Position numbers and translations under genes: made by a program. The notes beneath the pieces are model-generated. The model worked only from the letters and a program-made list of their open reading frames with translations, was not told the origin of the DNA and ran no database searches. A stretch of DNA of 64,000 nucleotides from the human T2T-CHM13v2.0 reference genome, Homo sapiens. The stretch lies in NCBI RefSeq assembly GCF_009914755.1, contig NC_060925.1. The stretch is one strand, 5' to 3'. Shown piece after piece: positions 35,920 through 62,706 of this stretch. Position 1 is the first letter of the stretch. Each line of letters opens with the position of its first letter.

Positions 35920-37700
35920 TTTTAAAAACTTTATTTTCAATTTATAAACAGTAAAATCTACTCTTTTGGTGTACAGTTATATGAGTTTTGATAAATGCAT
36001 ACAGTTATGTAATCACACCACAACTAAGAAACAAAACAGATACATCACTCCCAAAAATTTCCTCATGCTATATCTTTGTGGTCAATTCTTTTCCCCAACA
36101 CCATTCCCTAGCAACCAATGATGTTCTCCAGACCTACAGTTTTGCCATTTTTAGAAGGTCTATGAATGTAATTTTATAATTTGTATGTACCCCTTGGAGG
36201 CTGGCTTATTTCTCTTAGCACAATGCATTTTAAATTCTTCCTTGTTGTGCCTATCGATACTCCATTCCTTTTTTATTGCTGAGTAATATTTCATTGTAAG
36301 ATGTTCCACGATTTGTTTATTCATTCACCAATGGAAGAATGTTTGTTTCCAGACATTTGAGATTATAAATAAAGCTGCTATACAGATTCATATAAAGGTT
36401 TTGTAAACATAAGTTTTCATGTCTCTTGGGTAAATACACAGGAGTGAGATTGGTGAGTCATGTGGCAAGTATATATTTAACTTTATAAGAAACTCCCAAA
36501 CTGTTTCCCAAAGTGGTTGTACCATTTTGCATTCTCACCAACAATGTATGCAAGTTTCATTGTCTTCATATCTTCACCAGCACTTGGCATTAACAGGTTT
36601 GTTGTTGCTATTCCAATAGGTACACAGTGGTATCTCATTGTGGTTTTAGTGTGTATTTCTCTAATGACTTAGGATGTTGAGCGTCTTTCCAAGTGCTTTT
36701 ATTCCATCCATATATCTTCCTTGGTGTCCCAAATCTGTTCAAATCTTTTCTCTTCTAAATCTATTTTTAATTACAATAAATACTAATGGACTAAACTAGT
36801 TTTTAAAAAGAAGCAGAAATTATCAACCTGTATAAAATAAAAAAAATCCAACTGTATACTATTAAAAAGATACCAAAATGTTGAAAACAAAAGGATGGAA
36901 AAATTATAGCAGGCAAATACCAAAATAAAGCTGATGTAACTATAGTCAATTTTATACATAAAATTGATTTAAGGCAAAAAGCATTATTTGGGATAAAAGG
37001 TAACTAAATAATAAGAAAAAAATTAACTGAGAAAAATAGCAATACTTGTAGACACTTAATAACAACCTCTATTTGTATAAAGTAAAAACTGACATAATTG
37101 CAAGGAGAAATTCATAAATCCACAGTGATAGTGGAAACTTGTTAAACTGAACTGAAAAATAATATTGGGAAAAACATAGAAGATTGAACTTCATAATAAA
37201 ACAATCTACTGAACAAATTTAGACCCCTACACTCAATAATTAGAGAACATATATTTTTATAGCACAACATTTAAAAAAAAACATGTACAAGCCTACAAAG
37301 CAAATCTTCACAAATCAAAGAATTGACATATAAAACATGTTCTCTGATCACAGTGTGATAAGAGAAATAATAATAAAACATCATATTTGGAAAATTCAAA
37401 ACAATTTGTAAATAACTAATGGGTCAAAAAGTATAAGAAAATGTAGAACTGGATGGTGATGAGTACACTAAAAACCAAAACATGTGGGATACCACTAAAA
37501 AGAAAATTTAAAACCTTAAATGCACACAGAAAACTAAAAAAAGCTAAAAATGAATCAAATATTAATTCAAGATGTTAGAAAGAACAGAATAAAACCAAAA
37601 TAAAATGTTCTCTGAAAAAAGAAATAAAACAGTACAACAGGCATGATTAAGAAAAAAACATAGAAGGCACAAGTAACAATCTTTGCAGGGAAAATGGGCA
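35920..37700. mobile_element. Old L1M fragments (minus-strand 3' region ~35920-36760; plus-strand ORF2 endonuclease remnant ~36770-37700)
   Basis: CCAAACTGTTTCCCAAAGTGGTTGTACC motif; degenerate A-rich ORF2 sequence. Confidence 0.7.
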
Positions 37701-38181: not shown

Positions 38182-39275
38182 CTAAAGTAACAAAGGCAAA
38201 CAAGAAATTAGTTTGCTACCATTTCCAAGTATTAGAAACTAGGTTGATGCTGTCAATCAATATAAATTTTAGAATCTTTCAGTTTACAGCTAACGAGAGA
38301 GTATCTACAAGGGCAGTCCTAAGGGTCCTGTGGTAGATTTCTTGATCTAGCCATCCAGATAGGTTACCTATATAGACCTCTATTCACCAGATAATTGAGT
38401 GGTTTTGGGCTACACAAACACTGCTTGTGGTGTGCAATCAGTATTTTCAAAAGTGATATCCCTACTATTGGTGATATCAGAAAATATTTTTGGTGATTCA
38501 CAGGTAAGTATTTTTTAATTTGACTGTTAGATGTTTATTTCAATTTGCTTTAGATGAGGGAAAGAATCTTAAACAGGTACTTGTTTCACAAACATTGGCT
38601 TAGGATTTTTAAATCTTTAAGTGAGTCAGTAGAGAAAAATAATTCATAGAAAATAGTAGATTGTATACATAAGACATAAATCATGAAGGTTGTACACAGA
38701 TTAATGGAAAATACAACAATAATGATTGAAGTGCTATAAATATTCCCTCCTAAAAAGTTTATTTTGTCCCAATCAATAGTTTAACTTTCATTACTTCACC
38801 TCCCTATACCTCAGTTTGCTCATCTGTAAAATGGAAATAGAGTATCTGCTTTCAATGGGTTGCTGTGAGAGTGAATAAATTAACTCAAGGGTTAATAAGC
38901 TAATAAATTAATAAATACAAAGCACTTAAAAGAGAGCCTGGCACTTAGTAAACACTCTAAAGATGTCAGCTAGTAGTAGTGATGGTATTTCAGAAGATTA
39001 GGAAGAAGCGTTTACAATCCTAGATGGGTACAAGCATTATCTCCATTTTTCAAAAATAAAGGAATGAGTGGAGGCAAATTGTTATTGATCACACTGCTAT
39101 GCAGTTGAAATCAGAAGTTAATACTAGGTTAATGAATGAATGAATGTTTTCTTGTATCTATGGTATATATTATATGAAGCTATGAAGTGTGTTTTACATT
39201 GAATCTGGCAGTGACCATGCCTCATGATGAACACAACTGCTGCCTTTTATAAGCAGGTCTTTTATAAGCAGGCCC

Positions 39276-39388
39276 TTTTTTTTTTGAGACGGAGTCTCGC
39301 TCTGTCACCCAGGCTGGAGTGCAGTGGCGAGATCTCAGCTCACTGCAAGCTCCGCTTCCCGGGTTCACGCCATTCTCCTGCCTCAGCC
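39276..39388 (-). mobile_element. 5'-truncated AluY (partial right arm)
   Basis: TSD TATAAGCAGGCC at 39263-39274 and 39389-39400. Confidence 0.9.
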
Positions 39389-39508
39389 TATAAGCAGGCC
39401 TTTTATAAGGCAACAGCAAGGAGGAAGCCAGTGTATGTGCAGGGGAAGGAAGCCAGAGCAAGGCTCCAGAAGCAGATGATGAACCCAAGAGCGCAAACAC
39501 ATTTTCCT

Positions 39509-55555: not shown

Positions 55556-55977
55556 AAAAATGCCCCCCAAGTGTAGTGCTGAAGTGCGGTCTAGTGCTCC
55601 TAAGTGCAAGAACGATTTAATGTGTCTTACAGAGAAAATACTGTGTTAGGTAAGTTTCATTCAGACATGAATTATAATGCTGTTGGTTGTGAGTTCAATG
55701 TTAACAAAATTAACAATAAAATTAAATAAGGTGACTTTAAATAGAAAAAAAAGACAATGACAAATACTGACAAAGATGTGGAGAAATTTGAATCTTCATG
55801 TACTGCTGGTTGGAATATAAAATGGAAATCAGTTTATAACTCAGCAATATACCAAAGAAAAAGGAAAACATGTGACCACACAAAAATTTTCATACAACAG
55901 TTCATTGCAGCATTATCTATAATAGCCAAAAGAGTGGAAACCCAAATGTCCATCAATTGATAAATAGATTAAATTTG

Positions 55978-56306
<329 letters not shown>

Positions 56307-59300
56307 TTAGCCATAAAGCAGAATGAAGTACTGATACATGTTAGCACATGGATGGACATTAAAAATATTATGCCAAGTGAGAGAGGCCACCACGAAAGGC
56401 AACACATACTATATTATTTCATTTATAAATGTTCAGGGGCAGGTCCAGAGGGCAGCCATCCTAACCCAACCTGCCCTGCCCCCAGAAAAAAAAGTTAAAA
56501 AAAAAATGTTCAGAGAAGGCAAATCCAGAGACAGAAAGTAGATTAGTGGTTGCCAGGGCTTGAGGGAGGGAAGAATAGGAAGTGACTGCTAATAGCTATA
56601 GGGTTTCTTTTCAGAGAGGTAAAACTCAAAAGTTAGATAAGGGTGATAATTACACAACTTTGTGAATATACTGAAAACCACTGAATTGTACTCTTTAAAA
56701 TGATTAATTTTAAGGTGTGAGAATTATATCTCAATAAAGCTATTATTTTAAAAAAATGTTAGGGGTGTGCCTGCCACCAATATTCTGATACGTTCACCTT
56801 TCTGATTCTTAGGATAGTATTCCCACAGTAGGTTTTTCCCGAAATATAGAATTATAATACTGAAACTGCTTTTTAAAATGCTGCCAAGAGGAACTGAGAT
56901 GGCCGATTAGAAAAAGCTGCAGTCCACAGCTCTCATGGAAAATAAAAACAGTGAGTGAATTCAGCACCTTCAAATGAAATATCCAGGTTCTTCCATTGGG
57001 ACTGACTAGGCAAATGGCTTGACCCAGAAAGAATGAAGAAAAGTAGAGTGGGGCAATGGCCCACCCAAGAGCAGCACAGAGCCAAAGGAACCCCCACCCC
57101 CAGCCAAGGGAAGCAGTGAGTGATTGTGCGACCACTCACAATGTACGTGTGGCTTATCTGCTTGAGGAGTAAGTAAAGTGAGAAACCACACTTCTCACAC
57201 AGATCTTTGCAACCCACCGATCACGAGATCCCCTCATGAGCCCATGCCACCAGAGCCTTGGGTCTGATACACAGACCTATGTGGAGTCTTGGCAAAGCAG
57301 ATGCTCAGGCTCACACAGAGACCCAGGAGTTTTACATACTCTGGCCCCAGGAATCCCAGCAAGGCAGGAGATCCATTTATATGCTCCCCTAGGAATAGGG
57401 CTGAATCCAGAGAGCCAAGCAGTGTCATTTTGTGGGCCCCACTTCCACGGCACTTCACAAGTTAAGACCCACCACCTTGGAATTCCTGCCAGACAGCGCA
57501 ACAGGCTGGAGACTGCCTGAGATGGATGAGTTCCCAGAGGGTAGAGGCAGGTGCCATCCATTTCTGCAGTTTGTTCAACTCAGCCCTTCTAGCCTTCCAG
57601 CTCTGGGGAGTTCAAGAAGTCCTGATGAGGAGGAGTCCTGCACAATGCAGCACAGCTGCTGTGCCAGATTGTGGCCAGATTGCTTCTTTAAATGGGACCC
57701 CAATGCATCCCCCTTCACTGGGTGGGGCCTCCCTGCAGGAATTACAGCAACTCCAGCCAGGGTTATACAGACATAACTCTGATCTCTTTTAAGATGGAGC
57801 CACTGTGGGGAGGGATGACCGATGTCTCTGCGGTTCAGTCAACAGCCTTTCGGCCTGCTGGCTCCGGAGAGTCCAGGCAGTCTGGATGAGCAAGGGCTAT
57901 CCCCAACACAGCACACCTGCTCTACCAAAAAGCAGCCAGACTGCTTCTTTAAGCAGGTCCCTTATCCCATCCCTCCTGACTGAGTGAGACCTCCCAACAC
58001 GGGTCTTCAGATACCTCCTACAGGAGTGTCCAGGCTGGCAACAGGTCAATACCCCACTGGGACAAAGCTCCCAAAGAAAAGAGCAGGTTGTTGTCCTTGC
58101 TGTTTCACAGGCTTTACTTGCTGAAACCTCCAGGTAGAGGAAAAGCCAAGGCAACTTCCAGCTTTCTGGAGCCATCCCCCAGCAAACTGCAGCAGCCCTA
58201 CAGAAAAGTGGCCTGACTTTTAAAAGAAAAACACACAAACAGAAAGCAACAGCAGCAGCAGCATCAACAAAAAAGGCCTCAAAAAAACTCCATTCAAAGG
58301 TCAGCAACCTCAAAACTCAAAGGTAGATAAGCCCACAAAGATGAGAAAGAATCAATGCAAAAATGCTGAAAACTCAAAAAGCCCAAGTGCCTCTTCTTCT
58401 ACAAGTGACTGCAACACCTCTCCAGCAAGGGCACAGAACTGAGGCCAAGATGGCTGAAATGACAGTAGGCTTTAGAAGGTGGGTAATAATGAACTTCACT
58501 GAGCTAAAGGAACACATTGTAACCCAATGCAAAGAAGCTAAGAATCATGATAAAACAATACAGGAGCTGAAAACCAGAATAGCCAGTTTAGAGGGGAGCA
58601 TAACTGACCTGATGGAGCTGAAAACCATGATGCAAGAAGTTCACAATGCAAACACAAGTATCAATAGAAGAACAGACGAAGAGGAGGAAAAAATGTCAGA
58701 GCTTGAAGACTATCTTTTGAAATAGGAAGACAAGAATACAGAAAAAAAGAATGAAAAGGAATGAACAAAACCTCTGAGAAATATGGGACTACGTAAAAAG
58801 ACCAAACCTATGACTGATTGGGGTACCTGAAAAAGACGGGGAGAATAAAACCAAGTTGGAAAACATACTTCAGGATATTATCCAGGAGAATTTCCCCAAC
58901 CTAGCAAGACAGGCCAACATTCAAATTCAGGAAATCCAGAGAACCTCAGTAAGATATTCCATGAGAAGATCAACCCCAAGACACATAATCATCAGATTCT
59001 CCAAGGTCAAAATGAAAGAAAAAATGTTAAAAGTGGCCAGACTGAGAGGCCACATCACCTACAACGGGTAACCCATCAGACTAACAGTGGACCTCTGAGT
59101 GGAAACCCTAAAACCAGAAGAGATTGGGGGCCAATATTCCACATTCTTAAAGAAAAGAATTTCCAACCCAGAATTTCATATCCAGCCAAACTAAGCTTCA
59201 TAAGCAAAGGAGAAATAAGATCCTTTTCAGACAAGCAAACACTGAGGGAATTTGTCACCACCAGCCCTGCCTTGCAGGAGCTCCTGAAGGGAGCACTAAA

Positions 59301-60060: not shown

Positions 60061-60715
60061 CTATCCTAAATATATATGCACACAATACAGGAGCACCCAG
60101 ATTCATAAAACAAGTTCTTAGAAACCTACAAAGAGACTTAGACTCATACACAATAATAATGGGAGACTTTAACACCCCACTGACAATATTAAAAAGACCA
60201 TCCAGACAGAAAATTAACAAAGATATTCAGGACCTGAACTCAGCTTTGGATCAAGCACACTTGATAGATATCTACAAAACTCTTCACCCAAAAACAACAG
60301 AATATACGTTCTTCTCATCACCACGTGGCACTTACTCAAAAATTGATCACATATGCAGAAGTAAAACAGTCAGCAAATGCAAAAGAACTGAAATCATAAC
60401 AAACTGTCTCTCAGACCACAGTGCAATCAAATTAGAATTCGATGCTAAGAAATTCACTCAAAACCACACAACTGCATGGAAATTGAACAACCTGCTCCTG
60501 AATGACTCCTGGGTAAATACTGAAATTAAGGCAGAAATCAAGAAGTTCTTTGAAACTAATGAGAACAAAGAGACAATGTACCAGAATCTCTGGGATACAG
60601 CTAAAGCAGAGTTAAGAGGGAGATTCACGGCACTAAATGCCCACATCAAAAAGCTGGAAAGACCTCAAATTAACAACCTAACACCACAACTGAAAGAACT
60701 AGAGAACCAAGAGCA

Positions 60716-60906
60716 TGGACACAGGAAGGGGAACATCACACTCTGGGGACTGTTGTGGGTTGGGGGGAGGGATAGCATTGGGAGATATACCTAATGCTAG
60801 ATGACGAGTTAGTGGGTGCAGCGCACCAGCATGGCACATGTATACATATGTAACTAACCTGCACATTGTGCACATGTACCCTAAAACTTAAAGTATAAAA
60901 AAAAAA
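60716..60906 (+). mobile_element. Young 5'-truncated L1PA2/3 3' end nested in L1 ORF2
   Basis: GATGACGAGTTAGTGGG (GAG form, not the L1HS ACA/ACG); TSD AGAACCAAGAGCA at 60703-60715 and 60907-60919. Confidence 0.92.
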
Positions 60907-62706
60907 AGAACCAAGAGCAAACAAACCCCAAAGTTAGCAGAAGACAAGAAATAATCAAAATCGGAGCAGAATTGAAGGAGACAGAGACACAAAAAAACCC
61001 TTCAAAAAAATCAATGAATCCAGGAGCTGGTTTTTTGGAAAAAAATTAATAAAATAGATAGACCACTAGCCAAATTAATAAATAAGAAAAGCAGAAGAAT
61101 CAAATAGACACAATCAGAAATGATAAAGGTGATATCACCACTGATTCCACATCAAAACAACCATCAGACAAACTATAAACAATTCTATGAACATAAAGTA
61201 GAAAAGCTAGAAGAAATGAATAAATTCCTGGACACATACACCCTCCAAAGACTGAACCAGGAAGAAATTGAATCCCTGAATAGACCAATAATGAGTTCTG
61301 AAATTGAGGCAATAATAAATAGCCTACCAACCAAAAAGAAGCCCAGGACCAGATGGATTTACAGCTGAATTCCACCAGAGGTATAAAGAAGAGCTGGTAC
61401 CATCTCTACTGAAACTATTCCAAAAAATTGAAAAGGAAGGACTCCTTTCTAACTCATTGTATGAGGCCAGCATCATCCTGATACCCAAACCTGGCAGAGA
61501 TACAACAGAAAAAGAAAACTTTAGGCCAATATCCCTGATGAACATTGATACAAAAATCCTCAATAAAATACTGGCAAATCAAATCCAGCAGCACATCAAA
61601 AAGTTTATTCATCATGATCAAGTTGGCTTCATCTCCAGGATGCAAGGTTGGTTCAGCATACACAAATCAATAAATGTAATTCATCACATAAGCAGAACTA
61701 AAGACAAAAACCACATGATTATCTCGATAGAGAAAGAAAAGGCCTTTGATAAAATTCAATATCTCTTCATGTTAAAAATTCTCAATAAACTAAGTATTGA
61801 AGGAACATACCTCAAAATAATCAGAGCCCTATATGAAAAACCCACAGCCAATATCATAATGAAAGGACAAAAAGTGGAAGCATTCCCCTTGAAAACCAGC
61901 ACAAGACAAGGATGCCCTCTCCCACCATGCCTATTCGACATAGTATTGGAAATTCTGGCTAGGGAAATCAGGCAAGATAAACAAATAAACAGTATTCAAA
62001 TAGGGACAGAGGAAGTTAAATTATCTTTGTTTGCAGATGACATGATCCTATATCTAGGAAATCCTATTATCTCAGCCCAAAAGCTTCTTAAACTGATAAG
62101 CAACTTCAGCAAACTATCAGGATACAAACTCAATGTGCAAAAATTGCTAGCATTTTTATACACCAACAACAGGCAAGCAGAGAGCCAAATCATGAATGAA
62201 ATCCACTTCACAATTGCTACAAAAAGAATAAAATACATAAAAATACAGCAGTCAAGGGAAGTGAACAACCTCTTGAAGGAGAACTACAAACCACTGCTCA
62301 AGGAAATCAGAAAGGACACAAACAAATGGAAAAACATTCCATGCTCATGGACAGGAAGAACTAATATTATGAAATGACCATACTGCCCAAAGTAATTTAA
62401 AAATTCAATGCTATTCCCATTAAACTGTCATTGACATTCTTCACAGAATTAGAATAAACTATTTTAAAATTCATATGGAATAAAAAAAGAGCCTGAATAG
62501 CCAAGACAATCCTAAGCAAAAAGAACAAAGCTGGAGGCATCATGCTACCCAACTTTGAACTATACCACAAGGCTACAGTAACAAAAACAGCATGGTATTG
62601 GTACAAAAACAGACACATAGACCAATGGAAAAGAATAGAGAACTCAGAAATCAGACCACACACCTACAACCATCTGATCTTCAACAAACCTCACAAAAAC
62701 AAGTAA

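What the first reader, a model, noticed from the sequence alone, without database searches (positions are those of the whole stretch)
56427..56513. Tiny retro-insertion resembling the 3' end of an excised intron (mirtron-like)
Seen: a 67-bp insert (56437-56503) interrupts an old L1, with TSD AAATGTTCAG (56427-56436 and 56504-56513) and an A-rich tail, the hallmarks of L1-mediated TPRT. Its 49-nt body, GGGCAGGTCCAGAGGGCAGCCATCCTAACCCAACCTGCCCTGCCCCCAG, does not resemble Alu, L1 or SVA and has no AATAAA. It contains a CTAAC branch motif (A at -22), a C-rich tract and a terminal CAG directly before the A-tail. Its ends are complementary (GGGCAGG/CCTGCCC), as in GC-rich mirtron hairpins. Inference: a debranched, oligoadenylated intron or mirtron was reverse-transcribed, an unusual retrocopy substrate.
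Basis: partly seen in the sequence, partly recalled or inferred. Interest (0 to 1): 0.76.

Follow-up and report, generated by a model that had tools for sequence, protein, structure and literature searches.

The report
Orphan 67-bp retrocopy inside old L1
A 67-base, A-tailed snippet of an unidentified RNA was pasted by the L1 copy-and-paste machinery into an old L1 element; its end looks strikingly like the end of an intron, but no source gene can be found, so it stays a plausible curiosity rather than a proven new class.

Summary
A 67-bp insert (49-nt GC-rich body plus an 18-nt A-rich tail) sits at 56437-56503 between perfect 10-bp direct repeats. L1 paralogues carry that 10-mer once and lack the insert. 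This is the anatomy of an L1-mediated (TPRT) insertion.

The body is single-copy in T2T-CHM13. No other locus matches the whole 49-mer, its 5' 25-mer or its 3' 30-mer with up to 3 mismatches. A CpG-decay-tolerant pattern and a 60-nt BLAST-type search also found only the locus itself. A control showed that search detects 85-95% identical matches. So the decisive test, a parent ending at an intron's AG, could not be made.

Indirect evidence favours an intron end. CAG terminus, 14/18 pyrimidines, CTAAC at -22 and an AG-free gap occur together at only 5 of 198,344 positions in held human DNA. No poly(A) signal lies in the body.

The mirtron part is unsupported: the hairpin is not significant and no Rfam family matches. 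A precedent exists in type-2 snoRNA retroposons that run to the 3' splice site (PMC1687206).

Verdict: real retro-insert; intron-tail origin about 0.4; modest interest.

The parts
56427..56436 (+). Upstream copy of the 10-bp target-site duplication, AAATGTTCAG. It is preceded by ...CATTTAT, so the bottom-strand nick site reads ATTT/AT.
   Evidence: present once in L1 paralogues. The L1 endonuclease consensus TTTT/AA is recalled, not tested.
56437..56485 (+). 49-nt GC-rich body of the retro-insert, single-copy in the genome. The 5' half is G-rich and the 3' half is C-rich.
   Evidence: self-only hits; no source in the window.
56461..56465 (+). CTAAC branch-point-like motif; its second A (56464) lies 21 nt upstream of the last base of the body (position -22).
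56466..56483 (+). C-rich pyrimidine tract (14 of 18 pyrimidines). No AG dinucleotide lies between the branch-type A and the terminal AG.
56484..56485 (+). Terminal AG (within CAG), directly abutting the A-tail.
56486..56503 (+). A-rich tail AAAAAAAAGTTAAAAAAA (15 of 18 A). It runs into the AAA that starts the downstream TSD copy.
56504..56513 (+). Downstream copy of the 10-bp target-site duplication.
56295..56426 (+). Host L1, upstream flank: a decayed remnant of the ORF2 C-terminus.
   Evidence: only PDB hits are LINE-1 ORF2p residues 1229-1263.
56514..56757 (+). Host L1, downstream flank: 3' UTR ending in AATAAA plus an A-run.
   Evidence: (75-79% identical paralogues).

Best explanation
An L1 endonuclease/reverse-transcriptase complex nicked the 3' end of an old L1 copy at ...TTTAT/AAAT... 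It primed on the A-tail of a cellular, non-repeat RNA, copied only the RNA's last 49 nt before the cDNA was joined, and left a 10-bp target-site duplication. This anatomy is shown.

The template RNA most likely ended at a genuine 3' splice site. That means the 3' part of a spliced-out, GC-rich intron, either debranched and linear or the tail of a lariat, which had received a short untemplated A-rich tail from a nuclear TRAMP/TENT4-type polymerase. This step is inferred.

The event is probably old. Copy and parent would then differ by more than about 12%, which would explain why no parent is detectable. The insert is a dead fossil with no expected function, and it is not a mirtron hairpin.
For: TPRT:
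- Perfect 10-bp TSD, 18-nt A-rich tail and an A/T-rich nick site.
- Insert and duplication are absent from all 8 L1 paralogues that align on both flanks.
- A 5'-truncated L1 of about 190 bp with a 13-bp TSD at 60708-60907 shows the same process at work in this window.

Intron end:
- The combination YAG end + at least 14/18 pyrimidines + CTAAC with its A 18-40 nt from the end + AG-free gap occurs at 5 of 198,344 positions of held human DNA, the finding included. With CTRAY it is 24, with YTNAY 108.
- In composition-matched random sequences it occurs 0-3, 2-9 and 3-22 times per 200,000.
- Of 9 annotated acceptors in the window, 4 pass at the YTNAY level, 1 at CTRAY and 0 at CTAAC. The rough likelihood ratio is therefore about 10^3 for a real acceptor over a random end.
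- None of the 16 hexamers checked (list recalled from memory) lies in the body, and the last templated base is G. Both are unusual for an mRNA 3' end (the cleavage-site preference is recalled).

Precedent and substrates:
- Type-2 snoRNA retroposons carry host-intron sequence, in rare cases up to the 3' splice site. Their A-tails often contain G, and a TRAMP-like tailing was proposed (PMC1687206).
- Stable full-length excised linear introns with 1-2 untemplated A/U exist in human samples (PMC7518892, passages).
Against: - No parent was found, so there is no direct link to any intron.
- The 3'-splice-site likeness was the reason this insert was picked. In a whole-genome scan of many short orphan inserts, one such end could arise by chance.
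- Known untemplated tails on excised introns are only 1-2 nt, shorter than L1 is thought to need.
- The GTT inside the tail may mean that part of the tail was templated. That would put the RNA's true 3' end after GTT and not at the AG.
- The prior frequency of intron-derived retrocopies is low: they are called rare cases in PMC1687206.
- The age is not measured.
Confidence: 0.4

Rival explanations
1. An ordinary, severely 5'-truncated processed pseudogene. L1 copied the last 49 nt of a polyadenylated mRNA or lncRNA that used a non-canonical poly(A) site, and the splice-acceptor look is coincidence.
For: mRNAs are by far the commonest non-repeat templates of L1 in trans (reviews listed, seen only as listing and abstracts). 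Severe 5' truncation is common, as in the roughly 190-bp L1 at 60708-60907 and the 114-nt truncated Alu at 39263-39400. An old, neutrally drifting 3' UTR parent would also escape my searches.
Against: No AATAAA or any of 15 other variant hexamers lies in the 49 nt before the tail (list recalled). The last templated base is G. Chance acceptor-likeness has a probability of 2.5e-5 to 5e-4 per position.
Confidence: 0.25
2. Internal priming. The tail is partly genomic, and L1 primed on an encoded A-rich tract (AAAAAAAAGTTAAA...) inside a longer nuclear transcript. This could be an unspliced pre-mRNA, in which the tract might even be the start of an exon following this acceptor.
For: The tail is interrupted by three adjacent non-A bases (GTT). 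That pattern is easier to explain as templated sequence than as three independent substitutions.
Against: The 60-nt query, which included the AAAAAAAAGTT, found nothing but the locus itself. For a random internal site the acceptor-likeness is again a chance event of 1e-5 to 5e-4. A-tails of published intron-derived retroposons also contain non-A bases.
Confidence: 0.15
3. Orphan 3' transduction. The body is unique sequence from downstream of a source L1 or SVA, mobilised after read-through and truncated so that nothing of the element remains.
For: It has the same anatomy: unique body, A-tail and TSD.
Against: Transductions end at a downstream poly(A) signal, and none lies in the body. No locus in T2T-CHM13 carries the sequence next to an L1.
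Confidence: 0.05
4. Retrocopy of a mirtron or agotron-type pre-miRNA hairpin.
For: Composition shifts from G-rich to C-rich, and the ends are complementary over 7-8 nt. A weak resemblance to mir-1228 was reported by cmscan (14.3 bits, E 7.2).
Against: The fold is not better than shuffles: z = -1.56, and 14 of 200 shuffles fold at least as well. At 49 nt the body is shorter than the excised-intron RNAs reported (73-130 nt; PMC7518892). The body does not begin with GT. Rfam scores are far below gathering. No extant human locus, mirtron or other, matches the 3' 30 nt with up to 3 mismatches.
Confidence: 0.05
5. Not retrotransposition: filler DNA captured during double-strand-break repair, with a chance direct repeat.
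For: The insert is very short and has no identifiable source.
Against: An exact duplication of 10 bp of host L1 sequence, an A-tail placed precisely at the 3' junction, and an A/T-rich nick site together are the TPRT signature.
Confidence: 0.03

Closest known systems
Type-2 snoRNA retroposons (snoRTs; Weber 2006, PMC1687206)
   Same: L1-type insertion with TSD and an A-rich tail that can contain non-A bases. The template is an intron-derived, non-mRNA species. In rare cases the copy runs to the host intron's 3' splice site, and polyadenylation by a TRAMP-like activity was proposed.
   Different: Those copies start at the 5' end of a snoRNA and have identified parents. This one contains no snoRNA (Rfam), is only 49 nt long and has no identified parent.
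5'-truncated processed pseudogenes of mRNAs
   Same: [quoted passage not shown]
   Different: No poly(A) signal in the body, no detectable parent, and an end that looks like a splice acceptor.
MicroRNA retrocopies (mir-373 and mir-498 groups; Pan and Lin 2020, PMC7692494)
   Same: The poly(A) tract is attached directly to the end of a non-coding RNA segment, with no canonical 3' UTR (abstract and passages).
   Different: Those have identified, primate-specific parents and contain whole pre-miRNA homologues. The word mirtron occurs 0 times in that paper. No miRNA family matches here.
Small-RNA retropseudogenes made by L1 template switching (U6, U3, Y RNAs and others)
   Same: A non-mRNA template acquires an A-tail and TSD through the L1 machinery (mentioned in PMC1687206; the rest is recalled).
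   Different: No Rfam family reaches its threshold on the insert; the best is 19.3 bits against a gathering score of 45, on the opposite strand across the tail.
Mirtrons and full-length excised linear introns (PMC7518892)
   Same: GC-rich, G-to-C polarity, ends in CCCCCAG; such RNAs are stable and can carry 1-2 untemplated A/U.
   Different: No significant hairpin, no 5' GT, too short, and no family match.

Membership tests
L1-mediated (TPRT) retro-insert | Target-site duplication of host sequence flanking the insert | tested here: met
   10 of 10 identical. The 10-mer is present once in the 7 paralogues that are uninterrupted at this site, with flank overlaps of 10, 10, 10, 10, 10, 9 and 6 nt.
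L1-mediated (TPRT) retro-insert | 3' poly(A) tail abutting the downstream TSD | tested here: met
   18-nt tail, 15 of 18 A, interrupted by GTT.
L1-mediated (TPRT) retro-insert | Endonuclease-type nick site (bottom strand TTTT/AA-like) | tested here: inconclusive
   The site reads ATTT/AT, matching 4 of 6 positions of a consensus recalled from memory. No statistical test was run.
L1-mediated (TPRT) retro-insert | Identifiable parent transcript elsewhere in the genome | tested here: not met
   Only self-hits. The control shows that the 60-nt search finds 85-95% identical matches.
Excised-intron-derived retrocopy (type-2 snoRT-like) | Copy ends at, or a few nt before, an annotated intron's 3' splice site in the parent gene | not testable with these tools
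   No parent was found, and no annotation or primate genomes are held.
Excised-intron-derived retrocopy (type-2 snoRT-like) | 3' end has acceptor anatomy (branch motif, pyrimidine tract, AG-free zone, YAG) | tested here: met
   All four are present. The combination occurs at 5 of 198,344 genomic positions and in 0-3 of 200,000 matched random sequences. Of the 9 real acceptors in the window, 0 reach the CTAAC level.
Excised-intron-derived retrocopy (type-2 snoRT-like) | snoRNA at the 5' end of the copy | tested here: not met
   No snoRNA family is near threshold. SNORD59 scores 19.3 against 45, on the minus strand over the tail and TSD.
Mirtron | The whole short intron, GT...AG, folds as a pre-miRNA hairpin | tested here: not met
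   The body starts GGGCAG, not GT. The MFE is -18.9 kcal/mol, z = -1.56, and 14 of 200 shuffles fold at least as well. It is only 49 nt long.
Mirtron | Match to a catalogued mirtron or miRNA family | tested here: not met
   mir-1228 scores 14.3 bits against 88; mir-1234 scores 14.6 against 70, on the opposite strand. No human locus lies within 3 mismatches of the 3' 30-mer.
Orphan 3' transduction | Poly(A) signal 10-35 nt before the tail, and a parent locus just downstream of a source element | tested here: not met
   No hexamer in the body (list recalled); no parent locus.
Interspersed repeat family | Many diverged copies genome-wide | tested here: not met
   Zero further hits to the 25-mer, 30-mer, 35-place or 49-mer patterns with up to 3 mismatches in 3.1 Gb. 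No repeat library (Dfam) is held.

The most novel reading that the evidence does not exclude
A spliced-out intron carrying no snoRNA or miRNA was oligoadenylated at its free 3' splice-site end and used as a template by L1. If so, excised introns (linear FLEXI-type RNAs or lariat tails) are an occasional, so far uncatalogued class of L1 trans-templates. Short TSD-flanked orphan inserts ending in YAG plus A-tail would then be their genomic fossils.
Probability: 0.35. Interest if true: 0.55.

Novelty: new member of a known kind. Interest (0 to 1): 0.3.

Why it matters
If the intron-tail origin were proven, it would extend the list of RNAs that L1 mobilises in trans from mRNAs, SINEs, snRNAs and snoRNA precursors to plain excised introns. 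It would also be in vivo evidence that intron 3' ends receive A-tails long enough for L1 priming. That would justify a genome-wide census of short orphan inserts that end in a splice acceptor.

As it stands, this is one 67-bp fossil without a parent, antisense in the last intron of ANKRD45. No function is expected. A published precedent already covers the principle (type-2 snoRTs reaching the 3' splice site).

Tried and rejected
- Parent search with a sequence-only covariance model built from the body: the own-genome search does not take models.
- A reference in place of letters for a pattern and more than 3 mismatches are not accepted by the tool.
- CpG-decay hypothesis for the missing parent (0 CpG, 6 CA, 2 TG in the body): a 35-place R/Y pattern plus 3 mismatches still found only the locus itself.
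- Local origin: the best non-self alignment in the 64-kb window scores 15, and the 20 shuffles score 12-15.
- Single splice junction inside the body: the overlapping 25-mer and 30-mer searches with 3 mismatches would between them have caught either side of any one junction in a young copy, and did not.
- Mitochondrial origin: rejected on composition, with no search. The G-rich half followed by a C-rich half does not fit. chrM is not among the 24 contigs, judging by the base total, though I expect, from recall, that nuclear copies of it would have been hit.
- Known RNA families: 13 cmscan matches at E up to 10, none near gathering.
- Pfam on the L1 flank peptide: 0 families (after a frame slip). 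L1 identity came from PDB ORF2p hits instead.
- The bacterial promoter/terminator scan is irrelevant here.
- Literature phrase search for retrotransposed, retroposed or intron-derived retrocopies: 10 papers, none judged from titles and abstract starts to concern L1 copies of excised introns.
- Dating: 0 differences in 10 TSD positions only bounds pairwise divergence below about 26% (95%). This is compatible with a parent more than 12% diverged, so the missing parent is not an anomaly.

Full report
**What is there.** At 56427-56513 the sequence reads AAATGTTCAG, then a 49-nt GC-rich body, then AAAAAAAAGTTAAAAAAA, then AAATGTTCAG. The two 10-mers are identical, and the identity stops at both edges. 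The body is 69% G+C (C21 G13 A10 T5). It has no CpG. Its first 19 nt are G-rich and its last 30 nt are C-rich.

**Host and empty site.** The upstream flank translates to [15 protein letters not shown].... Its only matches among solved structures are LINE-1 ORF2p, residues 1229-1263 of 1275 (4 of 4 hits, best E 0.02). Pfam gave nothing.
- A 478-nt query across the site found 4,555 first-look candidates in the window's own genome (T2T-CHM13). The 40 scored are 70-79% identical apart from the locus itself. The host is therefore an old, high-copy L1 3' end; the subfamily was not determined.
- In one search several paralogues aligned to both flanks with their coordinates overlapping by 10-11 nt.
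- I re-aligned 96 nt and 97 nt of flank to the 11 fetched paralogue loci. Eight aligned on both sides. The flanks overlapped by exactly 10 nt in five, by 9 in one and by 6 in one. In L014 an unrelated Alu sits at that spot.
- No paralogue has the insert. The 10-mer is thus a duplication of L1 sequence made when 67 bp were inserted.

**Mechanism of insertion.** The combination is the signature of L1 target-primed reverse transcription:
- a TSD of typical length;
- an A-rich tail exactly at the 3' junction;
- a nick site that reads ATTT/AT on the bottom strand (the consensus TTTT/AA is recalled).

A scan of the window for the pattern A-run plus direct repeat recovers the expected Alus. It also finds a 114-nt truncated Alu (39263-39400) and a roughly 190-bp truncated young L1 (60708-60907, 13-bp TSD). 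This insert is the only short one with a non-repeat, GC-rich body. I take TPRT as shown, with probability above 0.9.

**Search for the parent.** In 3.1 Gb, both strands, the following found only the locus itself:
- the whole 49-mer with up to 3 mismatches;
- the 3' 30-mer with up to 3 mismatches;
- the 5' 25-mer with up to 3 mismatches;
- a 35-place pattern that tolerates CpG decay at 7 CA/TG sites, plus 3 mismatches;
- a 60-nt BLAST-type search of the body plus AAAAAAAAGTT (1 candidate, 1 scored).

As a control, a 60-nt piece of the L1 flank gave 152 candidates; apart from the locus itself, the 40 scored were 85-95% identical over 40-60 nt. So that search does see matches of that grade.

What this excludes:
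- an ungapped or nearly ungapped parent of about 88% identity or more;
- a young copy of a spliced RNA with one junction;
- membership of a sizeable repeat family.

The window itself holds no source. A parent diverged by more than about 12% is not excluded. The TSD (0 differences in 10 positions) only bounds pairwise divergence below about 26%, so an old event explains both facts.

**Is the end intron-like beyond chance?** I set four criteria:
- the body ends in YAG;
- at least 14 of the 18 preceding bases are pyrimidines;
- a branch motif has its A 18-40 nt from the end;
- no AG lies between that A and the terminal AG.

Results:
- Over all 198,344 49-mers of the human DNA I held (window plus 11 paralogue loci, both strands), the criteria were met 5 times with CTAAC (the finding included), 24 times with CTRAY and 108 times with YTNAY.
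- Mononucleotide shuffles of the body met them 0, 2 and 3 times in 200,000. First-order Markov sequences met them 3, 9 and 22 times in 200,000.

Of the 9 annotated acceptors in the window, 4 pass at the YTNAY level, 1 at CTRAY and none at CTAAC. The end of the body is therefore a better textbook acceptor than any real one nearby. The likelihood ratio for a real acceptor against a random end is of the order of 10^3.

Two further points argue against an mRNA end. None of 16 poly(A)-signal hexamers (list recalled) lies in the body; the only one found, AAAAAG, lies inside the tail. The last templated base is G.

Against this stand three things: the low prior for intron templates, the fact that the insert was picked because of these very features, and the GTT in the tail. 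The GTT may mean the true RNA end lay beyond the AG.

**Mirtron reading.** The complementary ends exist (8-nt arms). But the fold (-18.9 kcal/mol) is only 1.56 sd below shuffles, and 14 of 200 shuffles fold at least as well. The body does not begin with GT and is only 49 nt long. cmscan gives mir-1228 14.3 bits (gathering 88) and mir-1234 14.6 bits (gathering 70, opposite strand); 13 matches in all at E up to 10, none near threshold. I reject the hairpin/mirtron part.

**Literature.**
- Weber 2006 (PMC1687206; passages and section 7 read) describes type-2 snoRNA retroposons. They carry downstream host-intron sequence, "in rare cases ... up to its 3' splice site", and in four cases stop 3-17 bp short of it. 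Their A-tails often contain G, and TRAMP-like tailing is proposed. This is a direct precedent for the principle.
- Yao et al. 2020 (PMC7518892; passages) report stable full-length excised linear introns of 73-130 nt, some with one or two untemplated A/U.
- Pan and Lin 2020 (PMC7692494; abstract and passages) describe miRNA retrocopies whose poly(A) is attached directly to the pre-miRNA end. The word mirtron does not occur in that paper.
- Two searches found no paper, judged from titles and abstract starts, on L1 copies of snoRNA-less excised introns in the library held. Subscription journals are largely missing from it.

**Weighing.** Estimated probabilities:
- TPRT of a cellular RNA 3' end: above 0.9.
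- Among sources, intron 3' end: about 0.4 (mirtron-type hairpin about 0.05 within that).
- mRNA or lncRNA end with chance acceptor-likeness: about 0.25.
- Internal priming on an encoded A-rich tract: about 0.15.
- Orphan transduction: about 0.05.
- Not retrotransposition: about 0.03.
- The rest is unknown.

The insert is antisense to ANKRD45, in its last intron (hub annotation), and no function is expected.

**Verdict.** This is a real and neatly preserved retro-insert of unknown parentage. The mirtron idea is not supported, and the principle already has a published precedent. Interest is modest.

Noticed in passing
L014:1119-1610 (minus orientation; G000:C14:63368873-63372123): An L1 paralogue carries an independent Alu insertion within about 10 nt of the position homologous to this insert. 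The A/T-rich end of ORF2 in this L1 family seems to be a recurrent L1-endonuclease target.
   Followed up: partly
window 55962-56284: A full-length Alu with a perfect 16-bp TSD (AAATAGATTAAATTTG) and an A13 tail. It is inserted in the same old L1, about 150 bp upstream of the finding.
   Followed up: partly
window 60708-60907: A roughly 190-bp, severely 5'-truncated young-looking L1 3' end with a 13-bp TSD (AGAACCAAGAGCA) and a pure A11 tail. It is a handy internal comparator for short TPRT inserts.
   Followed up: partly
window 39263-39400 (minus strand): A 114-nt 5'-truncated Alu right arm flanked by a 12-bp direct repeat (GGCCTGCTTATA).
   Followed up: no
window 37170-37666: A 472-nt A-rich segment, apparently old L1-like, flanked by a 13-bp direct repeat (AAAAACATAGAAG). 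Its identity was not determined.
   Followed up: no
window 56486-56503: The tail's internal AAAGTT resembles the start of the TSD (AAATGTT) minus one T. Whether this reflects slippage or abortive priming at the target, templated sequence, or later mutation is unexplained.
   Followed up: no
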